A DNA stretch of 64,000 nucleotides from an uncultured Acidobacteriota bacterium (GCA_963741135.1 CAVUHC010000006.1:669760-733759), one strand, 5' to 3'; shown: positions 1-26,540, counted from the stretch's first letter. Notes: generated by a model not told the origin, from the sequence alone. A program made the numbers and translations.

Positions 1-1104
1 TGCCGCACGGCGACCGCATCGACGCGTTTCTGCGCGCCGAGCTCCCAGACGTGCTGCTCGTGACGCCGCTGCTGTATTTCGGCTCGGCACAGGTGGACTA
101 TGTCCGCGCAGCCAGGGCGCTCGGTATCCGCACTGTGCTCGGCGTCGGCAGCTGGGATCATCTGACCACGAAGGGGCTTATTCACGAGCAGCCGGATCGT
201 GTGCTCGTGTGGAACGAGGCCCAGCGCGGGGAAGCTCGCGAGCTGCACGGCGTTCCTCCGGAGCGCGTGATTGTGACCGGCGCGCAGGCGTACGACCACT
301 GGTTCGTGCAGAAACCGACGCTTTCTCGCGAAGCGTTCTGCGTCAAGGTTGGGGTGCCGCACGATCGGCCGTTGCTGTTGTATCTCTGCTCCTCGCCCTT
401 CATTACCCCACACGAAGTGCCCTTCGTGCGCCGCTGGATCGAGGGGATCCGCCGCGCATCCGATCTCGTCCTTGCGCAGGCGGCCATTCTCATCCGGCCG
501 CATCCGCAGAACGCGGATCAGTGGCAGGACTTCAATCCCTCCGAGTATGAGGCGGTGGGCATCTGGCCTCGTGGCGGAGCAAACCCCGTTGACACCGAGG
601 CGCGCGCCGACTACTTCGATTCGATGTTCTACAGCGTCGCCGTCGTCGGCGTGAATACGAGCGCGCTCATCGAGTCAGGCATCGTCGGTCGGCCGGTCTA
701 CTCCGTGCTGGCGGATGAATTCTGCAGGACAGCAGGAAGGGACGCTGCACTTCCAGCATCTCAAGAATGTCAACGGCGGCCTGCTCACCACGGCTGCGTC
801 GATGGCTGAGCACCTGTCCCAGTTGTCCGGCGCGGTCAGACGGGAGCCTGCCCGCGATGAGAAGGCGCGGGCATTTGTCGAGTCGTTTGTCCGGCCTTAT
901 GGTTTCGACGTGCCGGCTGCGGACCGTTTCGTCGCTGCAATCGAAACGTTCGCAGCGACACCCGCGCCGATCGCGCGGCGGAGCGGGGTGACCGGCGCCG
1001 TTCTTCGGCGGGCAATGCTGCCGCTCGCGCTGGCAACATCGGCGGCCGCCAGGACGCGGCGCTCCGACAAGCGAACGCCGCGTGCGGCCGGACCGCTTCA
1101 GATT
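1..1104 (+). pseudogene. Family-A paralog A1 (5' end outside window); uncharacterised GT-B-like RPHP-motif putative transferase, frame disrupted
   Basis: ORF 51..809 has SWDHLTTKG, VTGAQAYDHWF, ILIRPHP and ADYFDSMFYSVAVVGVNTSALIESGIVGRPV. The next family block QQEGTLHFQHL continues in the frame of ORF 715.., so a 1-nt indel lies near 715-725. There is no stop before the next paralog's ATG at 1105. Confidence 0.7.
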
Positions 1105-2825
1105 ATGTTCGCGCTCGCCTCGCCCGAGTATCTCCGCTACTTCGACTCGACCATGCGGCTCCTGGCCGAGCGCGGACACCATGTGAGCGTCGCGGTCAAC
1201 TGGTTGCGCGAGCGGAAGGCGGCGCGTCTTGATGGCCTTTCCGGCGACGAAGGGATCGACGTGATCGGTGTGATCCCGAAGCGGACGGACGTCTGGACGC
1301 CGATGGCCCGCGCCGTGCGCGGGACGTTTGACTTCGTACGCTATCTGCATCCACGGCTCGCGGCCGCGCCCGCGCTGCGCGCGCGGATGAAGCGTAAGGT
1401 CCTGCCGCCCTGGCTGCATTGGCTGGATCGCGTCGAATCGCTCGGTGACCGCGGCCTCAACCGGTGCTACCGCGTGCTGCGCGCCCTCGAGGGCGCGATT
1501 CCCGTAAGCCGCCGGATTCTCGATTTCCTGGCCGCGCACCGGCCGGATGTCGTCGTGGTGTCGCCGCTCGTGGACGCCGCATCGGATCAGGTCGATCTCG
1601 TGCGGGCATCGCAGGCGATGGGCATCCCGGTCGTTGCGGGCATCGCGAGCTGGGACAACCTCACCAACAAGGGGCACATGCGCGTGCGGCCTGACATGGT
1701 GACCGTCTGGAATGAGCACCAGAAGGCGGAAGCGGTCAGCTATCACGGTGTCGACGCGGGCCGGGTCGCGGTCACGGGCGCGCAGTTGTTCGATCGCTGG
1801 TTCGATCGGCAGCCAAGCCAGTCGCGCGAGGAGTTCTGTCGCATGGTCGGGCTGCCGGCCGATCGGCCGATTGTGCTCTACACGGGATCGTCGGTCTTCA
1901 TCGCGCGGTCGGAGGTCGAAGCGCCGTTCGTTCGCCGCTGGATCGCCGGGCTGCGCAACAGCGGCGACGCGATGTTGCGGGACGCGGCGATTCTGATTCG
2001 CCCGCATCCGTTCAACTGCGAGGCGTGGGAAACCGCGGACTTCTCGGACCAGGGTCCGGCGAGTGTCTGGCCCCGGCAGCGGTACACCCCGTCGGCTGAA
2101 GACGCGCGGAACAGCCTTTTCGATTCGTTGTTCTATAGCGCTGCCGTCGTGGGCGTAAACACGAGCGCGATGGTCGAGGCCACGATACTCGGCCGTCCGG
2201 TGCTGTCGGTGCTGTCGCCGGAGTTCGCTGCGACGCAGGAAGGCACCGTTCACTTCCACTACCTCCTACCCGAGAACGGAGGTTTCCTTCGCGTCGCGCA
2301 ATCGATTGAGCAGCATGTCCGACAACTGAGCGAGGTGCTGCGCACACCCGAGGTCACACGTCAGCAGACGCGCGTTTCGTCGGCAGCTTCATCCGGCCCC
2401 ACGGTCTCGATACCGCATGCACGCCGATTCTCGCGGACGCGCTGGAGCGCGCGGCACGCCTGTCGCCAGTCCCTGTTCGCGATACCGCCTCCACGCGCGC
2501 CGCCAGAATCGTCGCATGGCCCCTGGCGATCGTTCTGCAATGGATCGCGTTGGGCGAGAAGGGGCGTGCGGCGCGAAACGCATGGAGCGCGGCGGTGCGT
2601 ACGACGCGCATCGCGCTCAAACGCTTCGTCATCCGCCCGGCGCTGCTGACCGCCTGGGTTCTTCGAGCGGCGGGCGGGAAAACGAGGCGCGGCGCGAGGC
2701 GTGCAGTGCGCTGGAGCGGGTCGATTCCTGGCCGGCTACTTCGGCGCGCACGGCGCGCGCGCTATCAGGTCGCCGTCCACATCAGGGGAGAGGCCCGAGT
2801 CGACGGGAGTGATCCCCGTGGCTGA
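1105..2825 (+). pseudogene. Family-A paralog A2, frame disrupted near 2350-2370
   Basis: IMFALASPEYLRYFDSTMRLLAERGHHVSV, ASWDNLTNKG, VTGAQLFDRWF, ILIRPHP, FDSLFYSAAVVGVNTSAMVEATILGRPV and QEGTVHFHYL lie in the ORF 715..2649 frame. The family C-terminal block (ARFVGSFIRPHGLDTACTPILADALE) is readable only in the frame that ends at TGA 2823-2825. Confidence 0.7.
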
Positions 2826-4651
2826 TACGGATCGATCGACGACGCGCCTGCGCATCCTGTTCTCGATGCGCAACTTCTGGTACGTGCGCCTCTTCGAGCC
2901 TGTGATTCGCACGCTCGCGGCACGCGGTCACGCAGTCCACATCCTCGCGGAGCAGGGCGAGCAGAAGGAGGTGGCGCGCGACTTGGAACGAGGCGGCCAC
3001 GCGGCTCGCGGCAGAGTATTCCAACATCACGTTCGCTTGGGCTCCCAGACAGATCGACGACGTCTGGATCGATCTCCGGAGCATGATCCGGCTCGGGCTC
3101 GATCATCTCCGCTTTCTGCAGCCCGAGTACGCAAACGCGCCGAAGCTGGCCTAGCGCGCGCGCGTCCGCACTCCGGTGTTCATCGTCCGGCTCGCCGATG
3201 CTCCCGTCTGCCGAACGCGACCGGGCCGGCGGGTGATCGCGGCCGTGCTGCGCGCCTCGGAGCGTGCCATGCCAATCGACCCGGACGTGGCGAGCTACAT
3301 CGAATCGCATCCGGCCGATGTGATCCTGGTGACGCCGTTGCTTTCGCTCGGCTCCGAGCAGCAGGACGTCGTGCGCATCGCGCGCCGGCTTGGCGTTCCG
3401 ACCGCCCTGTGCGTCGGCAGCTGGGACCACCTTTCGAGCAAGGCGCTGGTCCGCGACGTGCCTGACAGCGTCTTCGTCTGGAACGAGACCCAGAAGGCGA
3501 GGCGGCGGTCTATCACGGAGTTCCGCCGGAGCACGTCGTTGTGACGGGGGCGCAGTGCTTCGACGAGTGGTTCGATCGCCGCCCGACGCTCCTGCGCGAC
3601 AGCCTTCTGCCAGCAGATCGGCCTCGATCCGGCGCGTCCGTATCTTCTCTACGTGTGCTCCGCGTTGTTCGAGGGTAGCCCAAACGAGGCACAGTTCGTC
3701 AGGAGATGGATTGCCAGCGTTCGGAGCAGCCCCGATCGACGTCTTCGCGAGGCGGGCATTCTCGTACGACCGCATCCGAAGCGCGGATTCGAATGGGATG
3801 ACGTCGACCCTCGATGGTTTCGCGAACACCGCCATTTGGCCGCCGCGCGGTGCGGCGCCCATCGACGCGGCGACCAAGGCTGACTACTTCGACTCGATGT
3901 ACCACAGCGCCGCAACCGTCGGCCTGAACACCAGCGCGCTCATCGAAGCGGGCATCGTCGGCCGCGCGGTGCATACGATGCTGCTGCCGGAGTTCTACGA
4001 GAATCAGGAAGGGACGCTTCACTTCCGGTATTTGCTCGAAGGCGGGCTGCTGCGGCACGCGCGCGACCTCGACACGCACGTCGCCCAGCTCGCGGAGTCG
4101 CTGGCCACCGCCGACAGCGCTCGTTCATCACAACCGAGCGTTCGTCGAAGCGCTTCGTCCGCCCCCATGGTCTGGGTACCGCGGCGACTCCCCGGTTTGC
4201 GGCGGCCGTCGAGGACGTGGCGCGTGAGCGCGTTCGGCCGGTGCAACAGGCGCGCTGGATCCCGGTTCTTCGAACGCTGATGGCACCGCTCGCACGGCGA
4301 ACGAGCGGCACGTTTGCCGAACAGGTAAGCCGCCAGCGCCGCCGCCGCGACAAAGAGCGCGCGAGGACCGAGCGCGTGTTGGCGCTCCGGGCGCAGCGGG
4401 CCGTCGAGAAGGCGCGAATTCTCGAGGAGCGGCAGCGCAAGCGTGAAGCGGCTCTGCGCGAGAAGCACGAGCGCGGGGAGCGCGTTCGTGCTGCGCGTCT
4501 GGCGGCGAAGCAGCAGGAGCGACAAGACAAGGAGCAGCGGAGGGCGGAGCGGATGGCGCAGTGGCAGCGAAAAAAACGACGCTCCGCGTTCAACGCGAGG
4601 CTCGTGGCGTACTGCCGGCGCCTCGTCAAACCATTTTCAGCGAGCCGGTGA
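2818..4651 (+). pseudogene. Family-A paralog A3 with Lys/Arg/Glu-rich tail; at least 5 frame changes
   Basis: Family blocks are scattered over ORFs 2701.. (RLRILFSMRNFWYVRLFEPVIRTLAARGHAVHIL), 3176.. (GSWDHLSSKALV), a third frame at ~3541 (VTGAQCFDEWF), 3653.. (CSALFEGSP..ILVRPHP), 3390.. (ADYFDSMYHSAATVGLNTSALIEAGIVGRAV, QEGTLHFRYL) and 4217..4651 (charged tail). GTG 2818 overlaps the A2 stop. Confidence 0.65.
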
Positions 4652-6199
4652 CCATTCTCTTTCTCGGCCGGCACTACACCTACTTCCGCAATTTCGAGTC
4701 GGTGCTGCGCGGTTTGGCCGAGCGGGGCCATGCGATCCATCTCGCCGTGGAGCGGGACGAGACGCTTGGCGGGCTGAGCATGGTGCAGGCGCTCGCATCC
4801 GAGTTTCCATCGATCACACATGGCGAGGCGCCGGGACGAGCGGATGACGACTGGTCGTGGGTCGTCAACCGCTTGCGGCTCGGCCTGGACTACCTGCGCT
4901 ATCAGCATCCGGTGTTCGGAACCGCGCGGAAGCTTCGCGATCGGTCCCGCGATCGCACGCCGGGCGCCTTCGTCACCCTCGGACGCGCGGTTCGGGCAGC
5001 CGGCGGCTGGTCGCGGCGCCTTGCCTCGGGCATCCTCCGTCGCATGGAGCGATCGCGGGCCGGAGGATCCTGCGATCCGCGGCTACCTCGAGGTCCAGCG
5101 TCCGGACATCGTTCTGCTGACACCGCTCATTGATCTTGGCTCGTCGCAAATCGAGTACCTCCGCGCGGCGCGCGCGCTTCGCATACCCACCGGACTGTGC
5201 GTCTGGAGCTGGGATCATCTTTCGAGCAAGGCGCTGATTCGCGATCTGCCCGATCGAGTGTTCGTGTGGAATCCGACGCAGAGGGGTGAGGCAATCGAGC
5301 TGCACGGCGTACCCGCTGATCGCATCGTCGTGACCGGCGCGCAATGCTTCGATCAGTGGTTCGATCGACAGCCGTCGCGCGATCGCGAGACGTTCTGCCG
5401 GCACGTCGGCCTGCCGTCGTCGCCGCCGTTCGTGCTCTGGGTCTGCTCGGCGCTGTTTGCGGGAAGCCCGGTTGAAACGCAGTTCGTTCGCCGGTGGATC
5501 CGTGCCTTGCGCGAAAGCGCGTCATTGCGGCTCAAGTCAGTGCCAATCCTCGTGCGACCGCATCCCTCGCGACTCGCTGAGTGGGAAGGCGTAGACCTCT
5601 CCGGTCTCAACGCGGTTCTGTGGGGCGACAATCCGGTCGATCCGCGATCGCGCGCCGACTATTTCGACACGCTGTACCACTGCGGCGCCGTCGTCGGGAT
5701 CAATACCAGCGCATTCATCGAAGCAGGGATCGTGGGGCGAACGGTCCACACGATAGTCGTACCCGAAATGGCGGATAACCAGACAGGCACGGTCCATTTC
5801 AACTATCTGCTCAAGGCCGGCGGCGGGTTGCTCGAGGTTGCGCACAGCGTTGACGAGCACCTGGCGCAGCTCGACGCATCGTTGGCGCGCAGCGACCGCG
5901 GCGTGAAGCCTTTCGTCCGCGACTTCGTCCGCCCGAATGGACTCGAGGTTCCCGCGACGCCGCTGTTCGTCGAGCAGATCGAATTGATGGCCGCCTTACA
6001 CCCCCCACCGACGCGGCGGGATCTGCTGGCGCCTTTCTGGCGCTGGATGGGGACGCACGCGGCGCGGACGCGACACGACGAGCGGTTCGAGCGGTGGACG
6101 TTGTCGGAACGCGAGCTGGCGTCGCTCGAGAATGCGCGCGCCGCGCGCCAGCTAAAGGCGGGTCGTCGCGCCGCGCTGAGGCGCGCCCGTGAGCGTTAA
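4648..6199 (+). pseudogene. Family-A paralog A4, single frame change near 5050-5065
   Basis: GTG 4648 overlaps TGA 4649-4651 (GTGA). The N-terminal block VTILFLGRHYTYFRNFESVLRGLAERGHAIHL is in the ORF 4561.. frame. The rest (WSWDHLSSKALI, VTGAQCFDQWF, ILVRPHP, ADYFDTLYHCGAVVGINTSAFIEAGIVGRTV, QTGTVHFNYL) is in ORF 4820..6199. Confidence 0.75.
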
Positions 6200-6256
6200 T
6201 CTGAAATCCGAGCGCGTCGCCGCTGCTCGTTGCTTCGGCTCGGTGGTCGACGTGAC

Positions 6257-7999
6257 ATGAAGATTCTCTTCACGGCGCTCCATTTCGCGAACTACCGGAA
6301 CTTTGAGTCGGTCATCCGCGACCTCGGCGCCCGCGGCCACCACGTCCATCTCCTGGCGGATGAAGAAGAGAGCTCCGGTGGACGGGCGCTCGTCGAGCGA
6401 CTGGCCGCCGAGTATCCGACGATCACGTGGGGATCGACGCCGTCGCCCGCGGAGGAGCCGTGGTTCCCCGTCGCGCAGAAGCTCCGGTTCGCGCTGGACT
6501 ATGTGCGGTATCTCGATCCGCGGTACGCCGACGCGAAGAAGTTGAGGCTGCGTAATATCGAGCGCGCGCCTCGCGTCGTTCGCTGGATGACGTCGGGCAT
6601 CGGCGGCGTGCTCATCGGCTATCGCCCCATCATTCTCGGCCTGAAGTGGATCGAGCGGATGCTCCCGAACAGCCGTGCAATGACGCAATATCTCGAAGAT
6701 GAGCGACCGAACGTCGTGCTGCTGACATCGCTGACGGTTTCCCGCACTCTGGCCATGGACCAGTTGAAGGCGGCGCGTGCGCTCGGGATTCCGACAGCAG
6801 CGTGCATCATGAGCTGGGATCATCTCTCCAGCAAGGCGCTGCTACACATTGCGCCCGACAAGACGATCGTCTGGAACGATATCCAGAGGCACGAAGCGGT
6901 GGACATGCATGGTATCCCCGCCGAGAACGTTGTCGTCACCGGCGCGCAGTGCTACGACCAATGGTTTGAAAAGCGTCCCCATCGCTCCCGCCACGAGTTC
7001 TGTCAGGCGGTCGGGCTCGAGGCGTCGAAGCCGTTTGTGCTCTACGTGTGTTCCGCGATGAGCCCGGTTCCGAATCCGGTCGAGCCCGTCTTTGTGAAGA
7101 AATGGATCGATGCGTTGCGGACGAGCGCGGATCCGATTCTGCGAACGGCAGGCGTGCTGGTACGTCCGCACCCTGAGCGCACTCGCGAGTGGGTCGGCGT
7201 CAGCCTTGCGGGCCTCGAGAATGTGGTTGTCCGCGGACGGACCCCGATTGACGGCGACGCAAAAGCGGACTATTTCGACTCCCTGTATTACAGCAGCGCC
7301 GTCGTCGGGCTGTGCACGAGCGTCTTCCTCGAGGCTGCCATCGTCGGCCGTCCGGTGTTGACTATGCTCCTGCCCGAGTATCGGATGCACCAGGACGGTA
7401 TGGCGCACTTCCGCTATCTACTGACCGTCGAAGGTGGACTCCTTCACACAGCGACGGACGTTCCCGCTCATCTCGCCCAGCTTGCCCTGGCGATGAACAG
7501 CGTCGGCTCGCGCGACGAGAGGAATTGCCGGTTCGTGACGGCGTTCGTGCGCCCCCAGGGACTCGACAGGCCCTCGACGCCGCGTTTTGTCAATGCTGTC
7601 GAGCAGCTCGCGCGAAGTGGCCGCCGTACGCCAGATCCGCAATTGACGCGCCCGTCGCCATTTCGCGGCGTTGTCAGACGCCTCGCAATCGCGGGCGCGA
7701 ACGGCCTTGGGGCCTGGCTGCTGATGGACAGCGTCGACGAGCAGCGTGCAGTTCTCGAGCGCGATCGCGAAGTCTCAAAGCGCGCCAAAGCGGTCGAGCG
7801 TGAGCGTCGATTCGAGGAGAGACGCTGGCACATCGACGCGCAGCGGAAGACAAAGGCGAACGAGAAGGCGGCAGACAAAGCGGAGAAGGCACGCCAGCAT
7901 GCCCGGAAGGCGGCGGCGAAGGCGCGCCAGCTTGCGGAGAAACGGAAACGTGTCGACGCGGAGCGCGCCGCGAGCGGCCAGACCGGCGTAGCACCGTAA
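6257..7999 (+). CDS. Family-A paralog A5, intact (580 aa), with C-terminal Lys/Arg/Glu/Ala-rich tail
   Basis: ORF 6230..7999, with a likely start at ATG 6257 (MKILFTALHFANYRNFESVIRDLGARGHHVHL). All family blocks are in one frame: MSWDHLSSKALL, VTGAQCYDQWF, LYVCSA, VLVRPHP, ADYFDSLYYSSAVVGLCTSVFLEAAIVGRPV, QDGMAHFRYL. The tail starts at ~7727. Confidence 0.85.
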   Translation: MKILFTALHFANYRNFESVIRDLGARGHHVHLLADEEESSGGRALVERLAAEYPTITWGSTPSPAEEPWFPVAQKLRFALDYVRYLDPRYADAKKLRLRNIERAPRVVRWMTSGIGGVLIGYRPIILGLKWIERMLPNSRAMTQYLEDERPNVVLLTSLTVSRTLAMDQLKAARALGIPTAACIMSWDHLSSKALLHIAPDKTIVWNDIQRHEAVDMHGIPAENVVVTGAQCYDQWFEKRPHRSRHEFCQAVGLEASKPFVLYVCSAMSPVPNPVEPVFVKKWIDALRTSADPILRTAGVLVRPHPERTREWVGVSLAGLENVVVRGRTPIDGDAKADYFDSLYYSSAVVGLCTSVFLEAAIVGRPVLTMLLPEYRMHQDGMAHFRYLLTVEGGLLHTATDVPAHLAQLALAMNSVGSRDERNCRFVTAFVRPQGLDRPSTPRFVNAVEQLARSGRRTPDPQLTRPSPFRGVVRRLAIAGANGLGAWLLMDSVDEQRAVLERDREVSKRAKAVERERRFEERRWHIDAQRKTKANEKAADKAEKARQHARKAAAKARQLAEKRKRVDAERAASGQTGVAP

Positions 8000-8004
8000 A
8001 TCAG

Positions 8005-9168: not shown

Positions 9169-9910
9169 TGCAGCGTTCTCGGCGTCATTCCCGCGCGCGG
9201 CGGCTCGAAGGGGATTCCGAACAAGAACCTTGCGCTCGCTCGGCGGCCGTCCGCTGCTCGCGTACACGGCGGACGCCGTGAAGCAGAGCACACGGCTGCA
9301 CGCGCACCATCGTCAGCACCGACGACGAGCGATCGCCGAGCTGCGCGCAGGTCGCTCGGCCTCGACGTGCCGTTCATGCGCCCGCTTCGCTCGCGGCAGA
9401 CGACACGCCGATGCTGCCGGTGCTGCAGCACGCCGTCGACACGCTCGAAGTCGAGCGGGTTCGAGGCCGACGTCGTCGTGCTGCTGCAGCCGACGTCGCC
9501 GCTCCGCCGCGCCGAGCACATCGACGCTGCGGTCGACTGGCTCCAGCGTGCCGGCGCCGATTCGGTGGTGTCGGTCGTCGAGGTGCCGCACCAGTTCAAT
9601 CCGGCTGTCGGTGATGGACATCGACGGCGGACTGCTGCACGCCGTTTCTCGACGGGCCGCTCGTCGACGCGACGGCAGGACAAGCCGCGCGTCTACGCCC
9701 GCAACGGTCCGGCGGTGCTGGCCGTGCGCGCCTCGGTCCTCGAGGGCGGGTCGCTGTACGGCGAGCGACTCGCGGCCGCTCGTGATGAGCCCCGAAGATT
9801 CGCTCGACGTCGATACACCATGGGATCTGTCGCTGGTCGAATTCGCGCTGAACGCGCGCAGTGCAGCCGACCTGACGGTCGGCCTCTCCGACACGTCGAG
9901 GCCGACCTAG
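9168..9910 (+). pseudogene. neuA: Acylneuraminate (NulO) cytidylyltransferase, multiple frame changes
   Basis: VLGVIPARGGSKGIPNKNL, LLAYTADAVKQS, STDDE, DVPFMRP, DDTPMLPVLQHAV, VVLLQPTSPLRR, DSVVSVVEVPHQFNP, RRQDKPRVYARNGPAV and EDSLDVDTPWDL are spread over at least 3 frames. ATG 9168 abuts TGA 9166-9168. Confidence 0.7.
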
Positions 9911-9923
9911 ATCCGCCGAACGC

Positions 9924-10938
9924 ATGCACATTCCATACAGACGCGTTTCCGAGTATCAGCCGGTCGACGTCAGCCGGCTGCGTCCGGGCAGCTCCTACAA
10001 GAGCTGATCGAGAAGCGCACGCATCCGATCGACGAGCTGGTCGCGCGGTTCGGCCGTATTCCCGAGGAGCTGCTGACGTCCGCGCGCGTGCCCGACCTGC
10101 GGCAGCGCCGACGAGACGCTGGAGCTCGACAAGGATCACATGCGGATCGTGCGCTGCGCGGCATGCGATCTCGTGTACGTCAACCCGACGTTCGACGAGG
10201 CGCACTACAAGCAGGTCTACGCCTCGCAGGCGTACCAGGACATCGTTCGCGATCTCGGCATCAAGAGCCACGACTACCGCGTCGAGCGCTTCGGTACGCG
10301 AGCGCGTCGGCATGATGGCGGAACACCTGCGCGAGTCGAACGGACGCGCGCCGCGCTATCTCGACGTCGGCTGCAGCACCGGCTTCGTCGTCGAAGCGGC
10401 GCGCGACAAGGGATGGGACGCCGATCGGCATCGATCTCAATCCATCGGCGATCGAGTTCGGCCGCACGCGCGGCCTCGATCTTCGCACCGTCGGCGCTCG
10501 AGGACGCGGGCTTCGCGCCCGGCAGCTTCGACGCGGTGTCGCTCTTCGACGTGCTCGAGCATCTGCTCGATCCGCGGCGCACGCTGCGCGCGTGCGCCGA
10601 GCTGCTCGCGCCCGGCGGCATCCTGTTCCTCTACGTACCGAACTACGACTCGGCGTCGCGGCTGCTGATGGGCGCCAACGCGCACTTCATCTGGCCGACG
10701 CATCATCTGAACTACTACACGCCGACGACGATCCGCGATCTGATGCTGCGCCACGGCCTCGACGCCGGAGCTGATCGTCACCGAAGGCCTCGACATCGAG
10801 GACTACCTCTGGTACCGCCGCGAGGTGCTGCACCGCGAGCGACGATGGCCTGGCGGAGATCGCGGACGTGCTGCAGTTCCTCGCCAACGCCGGCTGCTAC
10901 GGCAAGAACCTGCGAGTCATCGCACGCAAGAGCGATGA
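9924..10938 (+). pseudogene. Class I SAM-dependent methyltransferase with N-terminal Cys4 ribbon, multiple frame changes
   Basis: CPTCGS..RIVRCAACDLVYVNP (paired CxxC), YLDVGCSTGFVVEAA (SAM motif I), FDAVSLFDVLEHLLDP and LAPGGILFLYVPN are found in pieces of ORFs 9367.., 10140.. and 10868... The architecture matches the intact MTase at 21286. Confidence 0.65.
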
Positions 10939-12751
10939 AGATTCTCTTCACCGCGCTGCACTTCGCGAACTACCGCAACTTCGAGTCGGTGATTCGCGAG
11001 CTCGCCGCGCGCGGCCACCAGCGTGCATCTCGCTCGCCGACGAGGCGGAGAGCTTCGGCGGACAGGCGCTCGTCGAGCGCCTGGCAGCCGAGTATCCGGC
11101 GATCACGTGGGGATGGACGCCGTCGCTCGGCGGAGGAGCCGTGGTTCCCTGTCGCGCAGAAGCTGCGCTTCGCGCTCGACTACGTGCGGTTTCTCGACCC
11201 GCGGTACGCCGAGGCGAAGAAGCTTCGGCTGCGCAACATCGAGCGCACGCCGCGAATCGTCCGCTGGATGACGTCAGGCGTCGGCGGCGCGCTCATCGGC
11301 CATCGCGTGACTGCCGGCGCGCTCAAGGCCATCGAACGGCTGCTGCCGCGCAGCCGCGGCGATCACGCAGCTGCTCGACGAGCAGCAGCCCGACGTCGTG
11401 CTGCTGACGTCGCTGACCGTTCTCGCGCTCGATCGGCGATGGAGCAGTTGAAGGCCGCACGCGCGCTCGGCATCCCGACTGCGGCGTGCATCATGAGCTG
11501 GGACCATCTGTCCAGCAAGGCGCTGCTGCACTTGCGCCGCGACGTCGACGATCGTCTGGAACGAGGTGCAGAAGCGCGAGGCCGTCGACATGCACGGCAT
11601 GCCCGGAGACGAGCGTCGTCGTCACCGGCGCGCAGTGCTACGACCAGTGGTTCGACGAAGCGCCCGGCGCGCTCGCGCGAGGAGTTCTGCCGCGACGTCG
11701 GCCTCGATCCGTCGACGCCCGTTCGTGCTGTATGTCTGCTCCGCGATGAGCCCGATGCCCGATCCGCTCGAGCCGGTCTTCGTGCAAGCGAGTGGATCGA
11801 GGCGCTGCGAGCGAGCGGCGATCCGGTGCTGCGCGAGCGCCGGCGTGCTGGTGCGTCCGCACCCGGAACGCGTGCGTGAATGGAACGGCGTCATCGCTCG
11901 ACGGCTTCGACAACGTCGTCGTTCACGGGCGCAATCCCGATCGACGCCGACGCGAAGGCCGACTACTTCGACTCGCTGTACTACAGCGGCGCGGTCGTCG
12001 GCCTCTGCACGACCGCGTTTCTCGAAGCCGCGATCGTCGGCCGGCCGGTGCTCACGCTGCAGCTGCCGGAGTACCGCATGCACCAGGACGGGATGGTGCA
12101 CTTCCGCTACCTGCTCGACGTCGAAGGCGGCCTGCTGCACACCGCGCGCGGACCTGCCGTCGCACCTGGCACAGCTCGGCGAGGCATTGAAAGGTGCGGG
12201 GACGCGCGACGAGCGCAACCGGCGCTTCCTCACCGCATTCGTCCGTCCGCAGGGACTTGACGCACCTTCGACTCCCCGGTTTGTCGAAGCGGTCGAGCAG
12301 TTGGCGCAAGGGACGTCGTCGCGAACCGATTCCCGGCGTGAGCCGGCCGTCACTTCTGCATCGCGCTGTGACGCGTCTCGCGGTTGCCGGCACGCGCGGG
12401 CTCGGCGCATGGCTGCTGATGGACAGCGTCGACGATGAACGCGCGGTCACCGAGCGCGCGCGCGACGAGCAGAAGCGCGCCGTGCTCAGCGAGCGGGCGG
12501 CGCGGTGGGACGCGGAGCGTCGGGAGCGAGACGAGAAGCTGCGTCTCACGCAGCTGGAACGTGAAGAGAAGCAGCGGCTCCGTCGCGCCAAAGAGTGGCG
12601 GAAGACTCGTGAGGAATGGTGGCGCCAGACGCGTCGCCGAGCGAAGCAGACGATCCACCTCGCGCGGACGTGGCGGTACGCGCTCGCGACCAGTAAACCC
12701 CTGGCGCGGCTGAAGAACGGCGTGAAACTCCTGACCGGAGCGCGACAGCCG
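10935..12751 (+). pseudogene. Family-A paralog A6, close relative of A5, many frame changes, charged tail
   Basis: MKILFTALHFANYRNFESVIRELAARGH.., LVERLAAEYPAITWG, EEPWFPVAQKLRFALDYVRFLDPRYAEAKKLRLRNIERTPRIVRWMTSG, MSWDHLSSKALL, VTGAQCYDQWF, VLVRPHP, ADYFDSLYYSGAVVGLCTTAFLEAAIVGRPV and QDGMVHFRYL are spread across ORFs 10140.., 10868.., 11486.., 11566.., 11880.. and 12194... There is no stop before the GT2 ATG at 12752. Confidence 0.7.
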
Positions 12752-13787
12752 ATGACGCCGCGCATCGTCCTTGGCATGACGCTCTACAACAACGCGGGAC
12801 ACCTCCGCGAAGCGACGGACTCGATCCTTTGCCAGACCCACGGCGACTTCGCGCTGCTGATGCTCGACGACGGATCGAGCGACGAGGCGGAAGCAATCGC
12901 GCGTGAATACGAGCGGCGTGATGACCGGGTCCGCTATTGGAAGCATGCCGAGCGGCAGGGCATGGTGCCGACCTGGAAGGAAGTGGTCGAGATCGCCCGC
13001 CGCGAGCATCCGCGGGCGGAGTATTTTGCATGGGTTAGCGACCACGATCGCTGGGACTCGCGGTGGCTCGCGAGGATGGTCGCGGAGCTCGACTCGCATC
13101 CATCAGCGATGCTCGCCTATCCGCAGACACTGCGGATCGACGAACACGGCCAGCTGATGGAAAAGGAGCCGCGGGTGTTCGACACGTCCGGCATCGACGA
13201 TCGGCAGGGGCGGTGGCGACACTTCTCCTGGAACGGCTTCGGCTCCGGCGACATGGTGTACGGCCTGATGCGGACTCCGCGCCCTTGAAGCAGCTGGCAT
13301 CTTCCGTCCCGTGCTCAATCCCGATCGGCTGCTCATTGCGGAGCTGACCCTGCAGGGACACGTCCAGCAGGTGGCTGAGCCGCTGTGGTCGAGGCGACAG
13401 TCGAACCACGCGAGCATCGCGCGTCAGAGCGCCTCACTGTTCGCCGGAGCCACACCGCCGCGCTTCGGGTGGCCTCCGTCGCTGCAGCATGCGATCGTGC
13501 TTCGGCGCGCGGGAGTCAGCGCGACGATGATCGCCACTTACGTCGTCGCGTCCGCATGGCGAGCCACGCGCAAGACCGAGACGTCGAAGAGCCTCGGCCG
13601 TGGCGTTGACAACGTGCACTTCGTCAAGAAGGTCATCAAGAAGGCCATTCATCACTCGATCTACTACACGCTGGTCGGCGCGCGCGCGTTTGCCGGACGT
13701 TGCCGCCGGATCGGCCGCAAGATCGTGTACGAAATCCTGATGTTCACGCATCGGACCGGATTACGCGGAACGAGCAAGACGCGTTGA
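12752..13787 (+). pseudogene. Family 2 glycosyltransferase (GT-A), one frame change near 13255-13285
   Basis: MTPRIVLGMTLYNNAGHLREATDSILCQTHGDFALLMLDDGSSDE (GT2 N-terminal nucleotide-binding and DD/DxD region) lies in ORF 12194..13288. The continuation RALEAAGIFRPVLNPDRLLIAELTLQGH is in the ORF 13311..13787 frame. Confidence 0.75.
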
Positions 13788-15324
13788 AAATTCTTTTCGC
13801 TGCGCTGCACTACGGGTACTTCCGCAATCTCGAGTCGGTGGTCGAGGAGCTCGCTCGGCGCGGGCACGACATTCATCTGACCGCGGAGCGGCAGGATTCG
13901 GCGCTCGTCGGACACTCGATCGTTGAGCGGCTGGCGGCCAGTCACGAGACCGTGACGTTCGGGGTGATGCCGCGGCGCGAGCGCGAGTATTTCTTTCTGG
14001 CGTCGAAGATCCGGCTGTCTCTCGACTACCTCCGCTATCTGCAGCCGGCCTACGCGAAGACCCCGGCGCTTCGCCGCCGCGCGCGCGTGCGGACGCCCAG
14101 GGGGTTGCTTCGCGTGCTGCGCTGGCCGCTGCTTCGTACGTCCGGTGGCAGGCGCCTGGTCTCACGCGCGCTCGATAACGTCGACCGTGCGATGCCGCCC
14201 AGCCCCGCGATTGAGCGCTTTCTGGACGAGCAGCGCCCCGACCTCGTGATCATCACCCCGCTTGTCGGCGTCGTCGCGTCGTCGCAGCTCGATCTGCTGC
14301 GCAGCGTCAAGTCGCGGCGCGTGCCCACGGCTGTCTGCGTCTGGAGCTGGGATCACCTGTCGAGCAAGGCGATCATCCGCGACGTGCCAGATCGCTTGTT
14401 CGTGTGGAACGACGTCCAGAAGCGCGAAGCGATCGAGATGCACAGGGTTCCAGCCGATCGCGTCATCGTCACAGGTGCTCAATGCTTCGACCGGTGGTTC
14501 GATCGCCAGCCGTCGCGTGGACGCGCGGAGTTCGCGCGGCGCGTGGGACTGCCCGACGACCGGCCGTTCATCCTGTGGGTGTGTTCGGCGCTGTTTCCCG
14601 GCAGTCCGTCCGAAGCCGCAGTTCGTCATGCGCTGGGCGGCCGCATCTGCGCGCGTCAACGGACCCGGGCATCCGCGATACCGCGATCCTCATTCGTCCC
14701 CATCCGTCGCGTGCGCGCGAGTGGGAGACGGTCGATTGGCGCAGCGTCACCGGCGTAGCGTTCTGGGGCGGCAATCCGATTGACGAGGAGTCGCGCGCGG
14801 ACTACTACGATTCGCTCCACTACAGCGCGGCGGTGGTCGGCCTCAACACGAGCGCGTTCATCGAAGCCGGAATCTCGCAGCGCCCGGTGATGGCGATCCT
14901 GCCCGAGGAATTCAGAGCGAACCAGGAAGGCACGCTGCATTTCCGGTATCTCGTCGAAGGCGGGCTGCTGACGATCGCGCGATCGCTCGCCGAGCACGAG
15001 CGCCAGCTCGTCGCCATTCTTGCCGGTCCACCAGCTTCGGTCATGCAGCGGCAGCAGGATTTCGTCCGGTCGTTCGTGCGGCCGCGCGGACTCACGGTCT
15101 CGGCGACCGGTGTCATGACCGACGCGATTGAATCGCTCGCGGCCGCGGGGCCGGTGGATGTGCCACGTGCGGTGCCGGTGAGCGGACGGCTTGGTTTCGC
15201 AACACTTCGTGCGCTCGCGCGCACGCCCGCCGGTCGCCGGCTGCTGCTCGACGAGCGCGAGACGAAAGCCAAGAGGCGGCGCGCTGCCGCCGAGCACGCG
15301 CGCGGGGCGGCGGGGATCGCCTGA
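13784..15324 (+). pseudogene. Family-A paralog A7, at least 2 frame changes at ~14610-14660
   Basis: TTG 13784 overlaps TGA 13785-13787. LKILFAALHYGYFRNLESVVEELARRGHDIHL, WSWDHLSSKAII, VTGAQCFDRWF and LWVCSALF are in ORF 13700... QFVMRWAAA is in ORF 14262... ILIRPHP, ADYYDSLHYSAAVVGLNTSAFIEAGISQRPV and QEGTLHFRYL are in ORF 14404..15324. Confidence 0.75.
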
Positions 15325-17069
15325 TGAAGATCCTCTTCTTCGCGCGCCACTACTCCTATCTCCGGTTGTTCGAGTCGGGGATCGCGGAGCTCGCGCGGAC
15401 GAGGACATCAGATTCACCTGTCCGCTGATCGCGAAGAGTCGATGGGCGGCCGTGGCATGGTCGAGCGGCTCGCTGAAAAGCTACCCGAACATCACGTTGG
15501 GGACGACGCCGGGACGCGCGCCGGGAGCTTGGACGGAGTTTGCACGGCGGCTGCGGCTCGGGATCGATTATCTGCGGTATCTCGATCCGCGCTACGCGGA
15601 CACGCCGCATCTCAAGACGCGGGCGCGCGATCGCGCGCCGCGCAGCGTCGTGGCGATTGCCGAGCGGCTCAGCGCCGGCGCGCGCGAGACGTTTGGGCGC
15701 CTGCTCCGGACGCTCGAGCGCGGCATTCCACCGAGCCCGCACCTCGAGACCTACATCCGACAACAGACCCCGGATGTCGTGCTGATCACGCCGCTCGTCG
15801 AGCTCGGCTCACCACAGATGGATCATCTCGCGGCAGCGAAGGCGCTTGGCGTTCGCACGGCGCTGCCGGTGGCAAGCTGGGACCACCTGTCGAGCAAGGC
15901 GGTCGTCCGGAATCATCCAGACATGCTGCTCGTCTGGAACGAGATTCAGAAGCAGGAAGCGATCGAGATGCACGGCGTCGCGCCGGAGCGCGTCGTGGTC
16001 ACCGGGGCGCACTGCTACGACCAATGGTTCGGCCGCGCCCCGTCGAGGAGCCGCGACAGCTTCTGTTCGCGCGTCGGCCTGCGATCGGACCGCGCGTATG
16101 TGTTGTATCTCTGCTCGTCGCTGTTCCGGGGAACGGCCAGCGAGGCCGCGTTTGTCGAACGGTGGGTTGAGGCGATTCGCACCAGCGACGATCCACGGTT
16201 GAAAGACATCGGGCATCCTGATCAGACCGCACCCCGCGCGACGCGATGAGTGGAAGGACGTCGACCTCTCCGGCTACAAGAACATCGTGTTCTGGGGCTC
16301 GCATCCGGTCGATGACGAGGCGAAGGACGACTATTTCGATTCGATGTACTACAGCGCCGCCGTGGTCGGCCTGAACACCAGCGCCTTCCTCGAGGCGGCG
16401 GTTGTCGAGAAGCCGGTGCACACGGTGCTCGTCGATGACATCTCCAAGCACAACCAGGAAGGCACGATTCATTTTCACTACCTGCTCGATGTGAACGGCG
16501 GTCTGCTGCGCGTGGCGCGCACGCTCGACGAGCATCTGCGCCTGCTGGCGGATTCACTGGCGCCTGAAGGCGGCGGCGACGTCAAGGCGCATCGCTTCGT
16601 CGAAGGCTTCATCCGGCCGCTCGGCGCGTCAGTAGCGGCCACGCCGCGATTCGCGGACGCCCTGGAGACGCTGGGCGCGTCGCCGTCGCCGCGTCCTGTC
16701 GGCGATGGTCTTGCGGAGCGCGCGCTGCGACTGGCGTTGTATCCGGCCGTTGGCACGTTGCAGCTGCTCCTCCTGACACAGCCGCACCGCAAGCGCGTGC
16801 GGTTGCAGTTCCGCAAGTGGTACTACGATGGCCGGCGGCGTGCGTTCGTGAAGCTGAAACAGTTCGCGCAGAACCAGCTTGGAGAGAAGGAGCTGACCGC
16901 TGCGCCGCTCGGCCCGCCGTCGGCGCTCACGCCGAAGCCGGGCCGCCAGCGTGACCCCGCGAAGAAACTCGCAGGCTGGAACCTGCCGGAGGCAGAGGAG
17001 ACGCGCGAGTTGATCGACCGCGCTCGGCCGGAGCGGCCGGCCGATTCTGATCGGGCCGTGGCTGTCTGA
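15324..17069 (+). pseudogene. Family-A paralog A8, at least 3 frame changes; C-terminal boundary with B1 unclear
   Basis: ATG 15324 abuts TGA 15322-15324. MKILFFARHYSYLRLFESGIAELAR (frame 0), RGHQIHLSADREESMGGRGMVERLAEK (ORF 15442 frame), ASWDHLSSKAVV, VTGAHCYDQWF and LYLCSSLF (ORF 15191..), then LIRPHP.., DDYFDSMYYSAAVVGLNTSAFLEAAVVEKPV and QEGTIHFHYL (ORF 16287..17069). The last ~120 codons of this ORF look like the N-terminal extension of a family-B protein. Confidence 0.65.
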
Positions 17070-21255: not shown

Positions 21256-21280
21256 GCGGGTCTCAAGACCCGCCTCTACA
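21256..21280. repeat. REP-like hairpin, GTAGRGG-hairpin family (reverse orientation)
   Basis: GGCGGGTCTCAAGACCCGCC palindrome followed by TCTAC. Its reverse complement reads GTAGAGGCGGGTCTTGAGACCCGCC, matching elements at 32619, 39106, 40159-40210 and 54180. Confidence 0.7.
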
Positions 21281-21285
21281 TTGCG

Positions 21286-22233: not shown

Positions 22234-22245
22234 GGTTCGCGCCGC
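22201..22245. repeat. REP-like element overlapping the MTase 3' end
   Basis: CGCGGACCTGAAAGGTTCGCGCCGCG is nearly identical to 32575-32600 (one T/C difference). AAGGTTCGCGCCGC occurs twice (22212-22225 and 22232-22245). Confidence 0.65.
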
Positions 22246-22251
22246 ATCTGA

Positions 22252-22962: not shown

Positions 22963-23030
22963 GCCACGGAGGCACGAAGGCACGGAGAACAATTGCGATT
23001 CCTAGCTCCGTGTTTCCGTGTCTCCGTGGC
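22963..23030. repeat. Imperfect inverted repeat built from CACGGAG-type words
   Basis: The left arm is GCCACGGAGGCACGAAGGCACGGAG (22963-22987). The right arm is CTCCGTGTTTCCGTGTCTCCGTGGC (23006-23030). They are complementary at 21 of 25 positions, with an 18-nt spacer. The element overlaps the GTG 23018 start given for B3. Confidence 0.7.
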
Positions 23031-26537: not shown

Positions 26538-26540
26538 CCG

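What the first reader, a model, noticed from the sequence alone, without database searches (positions are those of the whole stretch)
1..17069. Nine paralogs (eight in tandem) of an unplaceable ~520-580 aa RPHP-motif, GT-B-like protein family (family A)
Eight consecutive + strand genes and one - strand gene encode the same architecture. The + strand copies are A1 1-1104, A2 1105-2825, A3 2818-4651, A4 4648-6199, A5 6257-7999, A6 10935-12751, A7 13784-15324 and A8 from 15324. The - strand copy is A9, 54089-55636. The following blocks recur in the same order with minor substitutions: (K/R)ILF..LH...(F/Y)RN(F/L)ES....L..RGH.(V/I)H at the N terminus; SWDHLSSKA; VTGAQC(F/Y)D.WF; L(Y/W)VCS; (I/V)L(V/I)RPHP; ADYFDS(L/M)Y(Y/H)S.AVVG.NTSAF.EA.I.GRPV; Q(E/D)GT.HF.YL; F(V/I)RP.G. 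Two Rossmann-like halves, an HP motif and a following Ser/Thr-containing loop are what TagF-type polyol-phosphate transferases, KpsC/KpsS-type enzymes and GT-B bacterial sialyltransferases have in common. All of these take CDP- or CMP-activated donors, and this locus carries four cytidylyltransferase genes (9168, 22252, 26541, 43730). I cannot match the family to a named Pfam/CAZy family from memory. Nine copies in one locus is far more than an ordinary O-antigen or capsule cluster carries.
Basis: partly seen in the sequence, partly recalled or inferred. Interest (0 to 1): 0.88.

Follow-up and report, generated by a model that had tools for sequence, protein, structure and literature searches.

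The report
Tandem array of unclassified GT-B glycosyltransferases
Nine diverged copies of an unnamed two-domain (GT-B) sugar-transferase-like enzyme sit in a sialic-acid-like sugar gene island that is conserved across soil Vicinamibacterales, and they are candidate transferases for these rare sugars, though that activity is untested.

Summary
The nine paralogous "family A" domains are real. All carry SWD(H/N)L(S/T)xK, RPHP, NT(S/T), HFxYL and F(V/I)RPxG. Pairwise identity is 38-55% (A5/A6 71%).

The gene models needed correction. Seven of nine copies are broken by frameshifts, almost all single-base insertions. The same insertions hit nearly every other gene when compared with a 94%-identical contig. 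In relatives, 249 of 255 copies are single-frame, so I read the frameshifts as assembly artefacts. A1+A2 form one A-A fusion gene. A8 is fused to a second unknown family, B.

An AlphaFold model (pLDDT 91) has a GT-B fold. Its best PDB matches are generic: NeuC/WecB epimerases, GT4 and GT28. No Pfam model or PDB sequence matches. All 62 members tested weakly hit NCBIfam BFO_1060, the Tannerella pseudaminic/legionaminic acid transferase family, but far below cutoff.

His305 of RPHP is conserved in about 100% of 282 domains.

Arrays of 3-8 copies, in conserved order, occur in 35 of 36 long loci from Vicinamibacterales MAGs, and 33 of the 36 loci have NeuB/NeuC/NeuA and family B nearby.

Best reading: a new GT-B glycosyltransferase family that works as a multi-enzyme assembly line for a nonulosonic-acid glycan. 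The donor sugar is unproven.

The parts
3..1095 (+). A1: family-A domain, 5' truncated by the window edge. It is the N-terminal half of one A-A fusion gene together with A2.
   Evidence: tblastn. Frameshift-aware alignment to the L002 1072-aa ORF runs from 3 to 2792 with no stop and a +1 event at 724.
1096..2825 (+). A2: second family-A domain of the A1-A2 fusion gene. It has no start codon of its own before the conserved first strand. Stop at 2823-2825.
   Evidence: There is a frame change near 2343-2370.
2818..4651 (+). A3: family-A gene. GTG start overlaps the A2 stop. About 8 frame corrections are needed.
4648..6199 (+). A4: family-A gene. GTG start overlaps the A3 stop by 4 nt. One +1 event near 5057.
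6257..7999 (+). A5: the only intact + strand family-A gene (580 aa). GT-B core at residues 1-460, then a single long K/R/E-rich helix at residues 492-572.
8008..10935 (+). Intervening module: NeuC-like hydrolysing UDP-GlcNAc 2-epimerase (8008-9165), NeuA-like cytidylyltransferase (9175-9765) and a SAM methyltransferase (about 9988-10935). All three are frameshifted.
   Evidence: Pfam PF02350 and PF13489. tblastn with the window's own NeuC and NeuA.
10935..12751 (+). A6: family-A gene, 71% aa and 77% nt identical to A5. It carries about 16 single-base insertions. The 3' end is approximate.
12760..13787 (+). GT2-family glycosyltransferase between A6 and A7. The start is approximate.
   Evidence: Pfam PF00535, E 2.6e-18. 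79% identical to the L002 ORF.
13784..15324 (+). A7: family-A gene. TTG start. Its TGA stop overlaps the A8 ATG. Two +1 events near 14619-14641.
15324..18000 (+). A8-B1: one gene that fuses a family-A domain (15324 to about 16700) to a family-B domain (about 17040-17997) through a basic helical linker. It is broken in the window by four +1 insertions (15400, 15479, 16212, 17017).
   Evidence: 91% identity over all 891 residues of the L002 fusion ORF, with no stops. A-B fusions are common elsewhere.
17997..19037 (+). B2: family-B gene (GT9-like GT-B).
   Evidence: Fold.
19088..22944 (+). Nonulosonate module: NeuB+SAF (to about 20100), NeuC (20101-21255), methyltransferase (21286-22233) and NeuA/CTP_transf_3 (22252-22944).
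   Evidence: Pfam. tblastn.
23018..25329 (+). B3 and B4: two further family-B genes.
32656..33882 (+). B5: an intact family-B gene (408 aa). This copy was used for the structure model.
40212..41303 (+). Second NeuB+SAF nonulosonate synthase.
   Evidence: Pfam PF03102, E 4e-75.
43730..44504 (+). Third NeuA-like CTP_transf_3 cytidylyltransferase (frameshifted).
54089..55636 (-). A9: family-A gene on the minus strand, the last gene of an oxidoreductase / polysaccharide deacetylase / formyltransferase operon. Its C-terminal tail is altered by a 35-bp insertion relative to the 97%-identical ortholog P0001 (569 aa).

Best explanation
Family A is an unclassified family of GT-B-fold glycosyltransferases.

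Proposed mechanism of one domain (inferred):
- The C-terminal Rossmann domain binds a nucleotide-activated sugar. The strand-loop R303-P-H305-P and the N353-T-S355 loop would contact the phosphate, and E359 and/or D341 the ribose.
- The N-terminal domain carries the invariant SWD188xLxxK193, N207, E213 and H218, plus an arginine-rich helical insertion. It would bind an anionic acceptor (a lipid-pyrophosphate-linked or acidic glycan) and supply the catalytic base.
- The basic C-terminal helix tethers the enzyme to the membrane or to partner enzymes.

Organisation (shown): the nine domains are old, functionally distinct paralogs. They are co-transcribed and translationally coupled. They are physically or genetically coupled to a second GT-B family (B, GT9-like), to GT2 enzymes and to methyltransferases.

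Function of the array (inferred): a cytoplasmic assembly line in which each domain adds one residue or linkage of a complex surface glycan containing legionaminic/neuraminic-type nonulosonic acids made by the same island. I consider it more likely than not (about 0.4-0.5) that at least some A domains use CMP-nonulosonate donors. This is inferred, not shown.

The frameshifts in the window are sequencing or assembly errors, not biology.
For: Fold:
- AF2 model pLDDT 91, pTM 0.85.
- 279 PDB matches at E<=1e-3. The 50 listed are almost all GT-B enzymes, best E 4e-10.

Active-site-like conservation over 282 domains:
- W187, D188, K193, N207, E213, E276, R303, H305 and H384 at about 100%.
- P306 and E359 at 99%; N353-T-S at 93-98%.

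Motif correspondence:
- The segment around NTS...E359 aligns with the NSS...E nucleotide-binding helix of the window's own NeuC, though not significantly.
- The linear order acid...HP...acid...S/T-S/T mirrors D141/H311/E338/S355-S356 of PmST1 and E153/H278 of NmB-polyST (PMC4202792, PMC2169525).

Link to a known nonulosonate transferase family:
- 62/62 members hit NCBIfam NF046086 BFO_1060_trans (best E 2.5e-9). Members of that family are genetically required for Pse/Leg transfer in T. forsythia.
- The T. forsythia genes also lie next to the CMP-NulO locus, behind a methyltransferase (PMC5420450). A6 does the same here.

Context:
- The window holds 2 NeuB, 2 NeuC and 3 NeuA-like genes, 3 DegT aminotransferases, acetyltransferases, a WecA-like initiating transferase, and GT2/GT4 genes.
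- Of 36 loci of at least 20 kb from other MAGs, 35 have at least 3 A copies (median 6), 33 have NeuB/NeuC/NeuA and 33 have family B.

Paralogs are old and maintained:
- Orthologs are 60-89% identical and in the same order in L002, L003 and L009. Paralogs within the window are 38-55% identical.

Coupling:
- Stop/start overlaps A2/A3, A3/A4 and A7/A8.
- Among about 155 representative proteins there are 28 A-B, 26 A-A, one A-A-A and one A-B-A fusion. There are also fusions of A to GT2, FkbM and TylF methyltransferases and a polysaccharide deacetylase.
- Family B is itself GT-B and GT9-like.

Frameshifts are artefacts:
- About 25 one-base insertions fall inside nearly every gene relative to the 94%-identical L001.
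- 249/255 copies in relatives are single-frame.
Against: - No biochemical or genetic data exist for any member.
- The BFO_1060 hit is far below threshold (26 bits against a cutoff of 200) and covers only about 125 residues of the N-terminal domain.
- No sialyltransferase, TagF or KpsC structure is among the 50 best Foldseek hits. The best hits are non-transferase 2-epimerases.
- The D/E-D/E-G sialyltransferase motif is not literally present.
- A His after C-beta2 and a Ser-rich loop also occur in UDP-binding GT-B enzymes, so the motif set does not identify the donor.
- Nine A domains against two or three nonulosonate pathways suggests that many copies use other donors.
- Family B, or the 578-aa protein at 47270-49003 (faint Capsule_synth hit), could be the nonulosonate transferase instead.
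- I could not inspect the model coordinates, so the proposed residue roles are inferred from sequence position only.
Confidence: 0.6

Rival explanations
1. Family A enzymes are ordinary NDP-sugar (UDP/GDP) hexosyl, HexNAc or uronosyl transferases of GT4/GT28 type. They build the glycan backbone. The nonulosonic acids are added by another enzyme: family B, the 578-aa protein at 47270-49003, or an unrecognised protein.
For: - 39/62 members give weak Glyco_transf_4 N-domain hits (best E 3e-6), and a few hit MGDG_synth.
- Foldseek top hits include MshA, WaaG, MurG and MGD1.
- The island also encodes UDP-sugar pathways: UDP-Glc/GlcNAc dehydrogenase, a GFO/IDH/MocA oxidoreductase, DegT and acetyltransferases.
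- There are many more A copies than nonulosonate pathways.
Against: - The C-terminal Glycos_transf_1 domain of GT4 is not detected in any member.
- The only consistent named-family hit (62/62) is to the Pse/Leg transferase family.
- A near-invariant RPHP is not a GT4 or GT28 hallmark (my own knowledge of these families).
Confidence: 0.3
2. Family A enzymes are TagF/TagB-like polyol-phosphate transferases that use CDP-glycerol or CDP-ribitol and make a teichoic-acid-like polymer.
For: - One PF01467 cytidylyltransferase (TagD/RfaE-like) lies at 26507-26986.
- The T. forsythia relatives were once assigned a TagB superfamily domain by CDD (PMC5420450).
- The family has the HP motif.
Against: - No PF04464 hit in 62 members at E<=1.
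- No TagF structure among the top 50 Foldseek hits.
- There is only one such cytidylyltransferase against three NeuA-like genes.
Confidence: 0.07
3. Family A proteins are not transferases. They are GT-B-fold nucleotide-sugar-modifying enzymes (epimerase or hydrolase, NeuC-like).
For: - The best structural matches are NeuC and WecB (5zlr E 4.4e-10, target TM-score 0.67).
- One member gives a faint TIGR03568 NeuC hit (E 0.16).
Against: - hhalign against the window's NeuC gives probability 0.2%.
- No PF02350 hit.
- GT4 and GT28 transferases score almost as well.
- The loci already encode one or two genuine NeuC genes.
- Fusions are to other glycosyltransferases (B, GT2). That is typical of polymerising transferases.
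Confidence: 0.06
4. The array in this genome is a set of decaying pseudogenes, and the frameshifts are real.
For: - 7 of 9 copies are out of frame.
- A6 alone has about 16 indels.
Against: - The indels are almost exclusively +1 insertions.
- They affect housekeeping-type genes across the window at about 1 per 750 bp.
- No premature stops arise once frames are restored.
- GC3 periodicity is intact after each shift.
- Relatives have intact copies.
Confidence: 0.04

Closest known systems
[quoted passage not shown]
   Same: - It is the only named family hit by every member tested (62/62, best E 2.5e-9).
- Both are predicted GT-B with an HP motif.
- Both are encoded next to CMP-nonulosonate biosynthesis genes, behind a methyltransferase (PMC5420450).
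   Different: - The score is about 26 bits against a cutoff of 200, and the match covers only about 125 residues of the N-terminal domain.
- The Tannerella proteins are 442-445 aa and single-copy, and carry DXD and D/E-D/E-G motifs.
- Family A is 500-580 aa with a helical N-domain insertion and a long basic C-terminal helix. It occurs in arrays of 3-9 copies and as A-A and A-B fusions.
Bacterial GT-B sialyltransferases and polysialyltransferases (CAZy GT80 PmST1, GT52 NST, GT38 NmB-polyST)
   Same: - GT-B fold.
- Conserved HP in the C-terminal domain, followed by an acidic residue and a Ser/Thr pair.
- A conserved Asp about 117 residues upstream of HP. The spacing is 125 in NmB-polyST and 170 in PmST1 (PMC2169525, PMC4202792).
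   Different: - No Pfam hit to these families.
- They are not among the top 50 structural matches.
- The D/E-D/E-G motif is replaced by SWD(H/N)L.
UDP-GlcNAc 2-epimerases NeuC/WecB (PF02350) and the GT4/GT28 transferases MshA, WaaG and MurG
   Same: - They are the best Foldseek matches (E 4e-10 to 1e-7; target TM-score 0.55-0.71).
- They share the same C-domain topology, with a His after the second strand and a Ser-rich loop plus Glu on the nucleotide-binding helix.
   Different: - Identity is 9-16%.
- There is no significant sequence or profile match.
- Family A has an extra helical insertion of about 90 residues in the N-domain and a C-terminal helix of about 80 residues.
Multi-domain polymerising glycosyltransferases of ABC-transporter-dependent pathways (for example WbbB, WbdA/WbdD, and bifunctional capsule polymerases)
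   Same: - Several GT modules sit in one polypeptide, joined by long helical linkers (A-A, A-B, A-B-A, A-GT2).
- They associate with methyltransferase domains.
   Different: - This is an analogy from my own knowledge only.
- No homology was tested.
- No ABC transporter was identified in the window.

Membership tests
GT-B fold glycosyltransferase superfamily | Two Rossmann-like beta/alpha/beta domains separated by a cleft | tested here: met
   AF2 pLDDT 91. Alternating strand/helix pattern in residues 1-236 and 255-400. 279 PDB matches at E<=1e-3; the 50 listed are almost all GT-B enzymes.
GT-B fold glycosyltransferase superfamily | C-terminal-domain nucleotide-binding elements (phosphate-binding loop and an acidic residue on the following helix) | tested here: inconclusive
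   NTS353-355 and E359 are 93-99% conserved. They align with the NSS...E of NeuC, but hhalign probability is only 0.2%.
GT-B fold glycosyltransferase superfamily | Glycosyl transfer activity | not testable with these tools
   Needs an enzyme assay.
BFO_1060 family (NCBIfam NF046086; Pse/Leg transferases) | Score at or above the curated cutoff (200 bits) | tested here: not met
   A5 scores 26.0 bits and A9 27.1 bits. All 62 members match only at E 2.5e-9 to 1e-2.
BFO_1060 family (NCBIfam NF046086; Pse/Leg transferases) | HP motif, and a location next to CMP-nonulosonate biosynthesis genes | tested here: met
   H305 about 100% and P306 99%. NeuB/NeuC/NeuA lie within 10 kb in 33/36 long loci.
Bacterial sialyltransferases GT38/GT52/GT80 | D/E-D/E-G motif upstream of HP | tested here: not met
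   The conserved upstream acidic motif is S-W-D-(H/N)-L. A Q-(E/D)-G-T block exists, but it lies downstream of HP.
Bacterial sialyltransferases GT38/GT52/GT80 | HP motif in the C-terminal domain | tested here: met
   RPHP follows the strand at residues 299-303 of the C-domain.
Bacterial sialyltransferases GT38/GT52/GT80 | Sequence-profile or close structural match | tested here: not met
   No sialyltransferase Pfam family appears among hits of 62 members at E<=1. None is in the top 50 Foldseek hits.
TagF/TagB polyol-phosphate transferases (PF04464) | Match to the Glyphos_transf profile | tested here: not met
   No hit in 62 members at E<=1.
KpsC/KpsS beta-Kdo transferases (PF05159, GT107) | Match to the Capsule_synth profile | tested here: not met
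   No hit in family A. A different window protein (47270-49003) has a faint hit, E 0.08.
UDP-GlcNAc 2-epimerase (PF02350) | Match to the Epimerase_2 profile or homology to NeuC | tested here: not met
   No Pfam hit. hhalign against the window's NeuC gives probability 0.2%. The resemblance is at fold level only.
GT4 (PF13439 N-domain plus PF00534 C-domain) | Both domains above the gathering threshold | tested here: not met
   The N-domain is hit by 39/62 members, and the hits whose scores were shown are sub-threshold (18-24 bits against 28.5; best E among the 62 is 3e-6). There is no Glycos_transf_1 hit.

The most novel reading that the evidence does not exclude
Family A is a new, CAZy-level family of CMP-nonulosonate (legionaminic/pseudaminic/neuraminic-type) transferases. 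The conserved arrays, together with the GT9-like family B and the A-A, A-B and A-B-A fusions joined by long basic helices, would form a modular polymerase system that builds a nonulosonic-acid-rich heteropolymer on the surface of Vicinamibacterales, an abundant soil lineage. Each paralog would supply a different nonulosonate derivative or linkage specificity.
Probability: 0.3. Interest if true: 0.8.

Novelty: new variant of a known kind. Interest (0 to 1): 0.6.

Why it matters
Few enzymes that transfer bacterial nonulosonic acids (Pse, Leg and relatives) are known, and the Tannerella paper says so explicitly (PMC5420450). That shortage limits glycoengineering and the interpretation of microbial surface glycans.

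Family A is large: 6336 clusters at 50% identity match at E<=1e-3. It has no Pfam model, no solved structure and no annotation beyond 'hypothetical protein'. It is tied almost invariably to nonulosonate biosynthesis genes in an abundant, poorly cultured soil order.

If even some paralogs are nonulosonate transferases, the arrays offer a ready-made panel of enzymes with different specificities. They would also imply an unusually elaborate sialic-acid-like surface polymer in Acidobacteriota.

If they are ordinary NDP-sugar transferases, the result is still a new glycosyltransferase family with an unusual array-and-fusion organisation.

Tried and rejected
Searches that found nothing:
- Exact-sequence look-ups of A5 and A9, with two start choices each, found no contig.
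- PDB sequence searches with A9 and with the 62-sequence profile gave no meaningful hit.
- tblastn of A5 against PLSDB plasmids gave no match.
- A literature search for Vicinamibacter plus nonulosonic returned no papers.

Comparisons that gave no signal:
- hhalign of family A against the window's NeuC, and of family A against family B, showed no significant relationship.
- Pfam at E<=1 on 62 members showed no TagF, KpsC or sialyltransferase signal.

Limits of what I could see:
- The representative search lists only the top 150 hits. I therefore could not walk the weak tail to find members that bridge to a named Pfam family.

Ideas considered and rejected:
- Real pseudogenisation. The pattern is insertion-only and window-wide, and relatives are intact.
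- Recent tandem amplification. Paralogs are 38-55% identical, and orthologs in other species keep the same order.
- A phase-variable repertoire. The genes are co-oriented with overlapping stop/start codons.

Correction to my own work:
- My first frameshift alignment used A5 or P0001 as the guide and produced spurious events in the divergent C-terminal tails of A1, A3 and A8. I corrected these by aligning to L002 orthologs.

Full report

The window has 66% GC, so raw ORF lists are noisy. In seven of them the match jumps between reading frames. Codon-position GC content follows each jump, so the coding signal continues across the breaks.

A frameshift-aware alignment restores all nine domains without internal stops, apart from one in A3. 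All nine carry these motifs in the same order:
- (K/R)ILF...RN(F/L)E
- SWD(H/N)L(S/T)xK
- VWN..Q..EA
- TGAQ
- L(Y/W)VCS
- RPHP, invariant in 9 of 9
- ADYFDS
- VVG.NT(S/T)
- Q(E/D)GT.HF.YL
- F(V/I)RP.G

Pairwise identity is 38-55%, and 71% for A5/A6. The paralog family is real and far beyond chance.

**2. The frameshifts are an artefact.**

A JGI soil metagenome contig, L001, is 94.4% identical in nucleotides to window 43890-63023. Relative to it, the window carries about 25 single-base insertions and almost no deletions. They fall inside nearly every gene: UDP-sugar dehydrogenase, epimerases, the WecA-like transferase, the transketolase-like gene and others. They are not linked to homopolymer runs.

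A6 is 77% identical in nucleotides to A5 and carries about 16 one-base insertions relative to A5 and to its L002 ortholog.

In 63 loci from other genomes, 249 of 255 family-A copies lie in a single frame. I conclude that the window comes from an insertion-prone, unpolished assembly and that the genes are intact in the organism. The alternative, real pseudogenes, is very unlikely given an insertion-only, genome-wide pattern.

**3. Corrected anatomy.**

Alignment to the orthologous ORFs of L002, an Acidobacteria MAG, gives three corrections.
- A1 and A2 are the two halves of one A-A fusion gene. They align continuously over window 3-2792 to a 1072-aa ORF. A2 has no start codon of its own.
- A8 is the N-terminal half of an 891-aa A-B fusion spanning 15324-17997, at 91% identity. 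The apparent stop at 17069 follows a +1 insertion near 17017.
- A6 ends near 12751 and is followed by a separate GT2 gene.

The + strand layout is therefore:
- [A1-A2] A3 A4 A5
- NeuC, NeuA-like, methyltransferase
- A6, GT2, A7, [A8-B1], B2
- NeuB, NeuC, methyltransferase, NeuA
- B3, B4, and so on

. The stop/start pairs A2/A3, A3/A4 and A7/A8 overlap, which suggests translational coupling. A9 is the last gene of a minus-strand operon that also encodes an FAD oxidoreductase, a polysaccharide deacetylase and a formyltransferase.

**4. What is family A?**

Sequence searches:
- No Pfam family reaches threshold. 39 of 62 members give weak hits to the N-terminal Glyco_transf_4 domain.
- No PDB sequence matches.
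- All 62 members give a sub-threshold hit to NCBIfam NF046086, the 'BFO_1060 family glycosyltransferase'. The best E is 2.5e-9. A5 scores 26 bits against a cutoff of 200, over residues 144-269.

BFO_1060 is the strain 92A2 member of the Tannerella forsythia protein family. Its members Tanf_01245 and TFUB4_00887 are genetically required for transfer of pseudaminic or legionaminic acid derivatives. These proteins are predicted GT-B with an HP motif. The Leg-type gene lies downstream of the CMP-Leg locus, separated only by a methyltransferase (PMC5420450). The arrangement NeuC / NeuA-like / methyltransferase / A6 in the window is the same.

Structure:
- An AlphaFold2 model of A5 built on a 62-sequence alignment is confident (pLDDT 91, pTM 0.85).
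- It shows two Rossmann-like domains, a helical insertion of about 90 residues in the N-domain, and one long K/R/E-rich helix at residues 492-572.
- Foldseek against the PDB gives 279 matches at E<=1e-3. The best are UDP-GlcNAc 2-epimerases (NeuC 5zlr, E 4.4e-10, target TM-score 0.67). MshA and WaaG (GT4), MurG and MGD1 (GT28) and GT1 enzymes follow. Identity is 9-16%.
- The fold assignment is therefore solid, but no specific GT-B family stands out. TagF, KpsC and the sialyltransferases are not among the top 50.

Conservation across 282 near-full-length domains:
- About 100%: W187, D188, L190, K193, W206, N207, E213, G229, E276, R303, H305, H384.
- 99%: H218, D234, P306, E359.
- 93-98%: N353, T354, S355.

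The order conserved Asp, HP, acidic residue, Ser/Thr pair parallels D141/H311/E338/S355-S356 of PmST1 and E153/H278 of the meningococcal polysialyltransferase (PMC4202792, PMC2169525). However, the D/E-D/E-G motif itself is absent. A His after the second C-domain strand and a Ser-rich loop plus Glu also occur in UDP-binding NeuC/WecB; the local alignment is. The motifs support nucleotide-sugar binding but do not identify the nucleotide.

**5. Distribution and partners.**

- A profile search of 1.84 billion representative proteins finds 6336 clusters at E<=1e-3 and 2048 at E<=1e-30.
- In GTDB species representatives, a pattern scan confirmed 222 relatives. Nearly all of the 63 loci kept are Vicinamibacterales/Acidobacteriota MAGs.
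- Among the 36 loci of at least 20 kb, 35 have three or more A copies (median 6, maximum 8). 33 have NeuB/NeuC/NeuA homologs and 33 have family B within 10 kb. Two of the three exceptions lie on contigs that carry such genes nearby.
- The order of paralogs is conserved. L002 has A1-A2-A4-...-A5/6-A7-A8. L003 and L009 have A1-A2-A3-A4-...-A6-A7-A8.
- Orthologs are 60-89% identical, against 38-55% between paralogs. The array is therefore old and each position is maintained. Only the A5/A6 pair is a younger duplication.

Family B has five copies in the window. It has no Pfam or NCBIfam match. Its model (pLDDT 79) is again GT-B and resembles GT9 heptosyltransferases and 2-epimerases at E about 1e-5.

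Among about 155 representative family-A proteins I found the following fusions:
- 28 A-B, always with A at the N-terminus
- 26 A-A
- one A-A-A and one A-B-A
- fusions of A to GT2, to FkbM- and TylF-type methyltransferases, and to a polysaccharide deacetylase

These fusions show that A works together with other glycan-building and glycan-modifying enzymes.

**6. Mechanism.**

*Shown:*
- GT-B fold.
- A conserved cleft-type residue set.
- Membership of a conserved island for biosynthesis of a nonulosonate-containing glycan.
- Ancient, ordered paralogs.
- Physical fusion to other transferases.

*Inferred:*
- Each A domain is a glycosyltransferase. It binds its donor in the C-domain (R303/H305, NTS, E359) and an anionic acceptor in the Arg-rich N-domain, with D188/K193/E213/H218 as candidate catalytic or acceptor-binding residues.
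- The basic C-terminal helix, and a hydrophobic segment in many homologs, places the enzyme at the membrane or links it to partners.
- The array acts as an assembly line, with each domain adding one residue or linkage.

*Less certain (about 0.4-0.5):* some or all A domains use CMP-nonulosonates. The main rival (about 0.3) is that they are NDP-sugar backbone transferases and another protein adds the nonulosonate.

**7. Novelty and verdict.**

The kind of system, GT-B glycosyltransferases in a surface-glycan locus, is known. What is new:
- The family is unnamed, has no solved structure and is large.
- It is organised in conserved arrays of 3-9 paralogs with A-A and A-B fusions, tightly linked to nonulosonate genes in an understudied phylum.

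I rate it a new variant of a known kind, with interest 0.6. Its gene models were wrong because it read through assembly errors. Its GT-B/HP interpretation is supported, while the specific CMP/CDP-donor claim remains a reasonable but unproven hypothesis.

Noticed in passing
window 1-64000 (examples: 724, 5057, 11023-12308, 15400, 15479, 16212, 17017; 44016-62856 versus L001): Single-base insertions break reading frames throughout the window, at about 1 per 750 bp and locally about 1 per 100 bp in 10.7-12.3 kb. There are almost no deletions and no homopolymer bias. This looks like an unpolished long-read assembly. Any ORF-based annotation of this window will be fragmented.
   Followed up: yes
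window ~54168-54202 (- strand gene A9, 3' end): A 35-bp insertion relative to the 94%-identical contig L001. It contains a G+C-rich inverted repeat (GGGGCGGGTCTTAGGCCCGCCCC) and replaces the C-terminal tail of A9; the ortholog P0001 is 569 aa. It could be a small hairpin or REP-like element, or a strain difference.
   Followed up: partly
window 17040-17997, 17997-19037, 23018-24079, 24061-25329, 32656-33882: A second unplaceable paralog family, B, with 5 copies. Invariant motifs are GPWLSE.G.E.LYW.PF, HPS, KFY and NL.VQT. It has no Pfam or NCBIfam hit. The AF2 model is GT-B and GT9-heptosyltransferase-like, with an N-terminal basic helical extension of about 100 residues. It is often fused C-terminally to family A.
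   Followed up: yes
window 28720-30240 and 33867-35882: Two paralogous polytopic membrane proteins that share the motif R(T/F)Y(S/N)YPK(I/L)(V/L)AYA. Neither has a Pfam hit, even at E 0.1. They may be GT-C-like or polymerase/ligase-like components of the same glycan pathway.
   Followed up: partly
window 47270-49006: A 578-aa protein of unknown family with only a faint Capsule_synth (KpsC/KpsS, PF05159) hit, E 0.08. It is conserved in L001. It is another candidate CMP-sugar transferase.
   Followed up: no
window 8008-10935 and 19088-22944: A duplicated biosynthetic module of NeuC plus a NeuA-like cytidylyltransferase plus a SAM methyltransferase. The second copy also has NeuB. A further NeuB (40212-41303) and NeuA (43730-44504) suggest two or three distinct nonulosonate pathways, possibly producing methylated derivatives.
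   Followed up: partly
L002 2064-5282 and 14327-17002; proteins P0121, P0127, P0211: Relatives encode very large multi-module proteins: A-A (1072 aa), A-B (891 aa), A-A-A (1546 aa), A-B-A (1429 aa) and A-B with a partial second family-B domain (1246 aa). The modules are joined by long, highly charged helical linkers. This is reminiscent of coiled-coil spacers in polymerising glycosyltransferases.
   Followed up: partly
window 26507-26986: A PF01467 cytidylyltransferase-like gene (TagD/RfaE type, E 1.4e-7), distinct from the three NeuA-like genes. It hints at an additional CDP-activated or ADP-activated precursor in the island.
   Followed up: no
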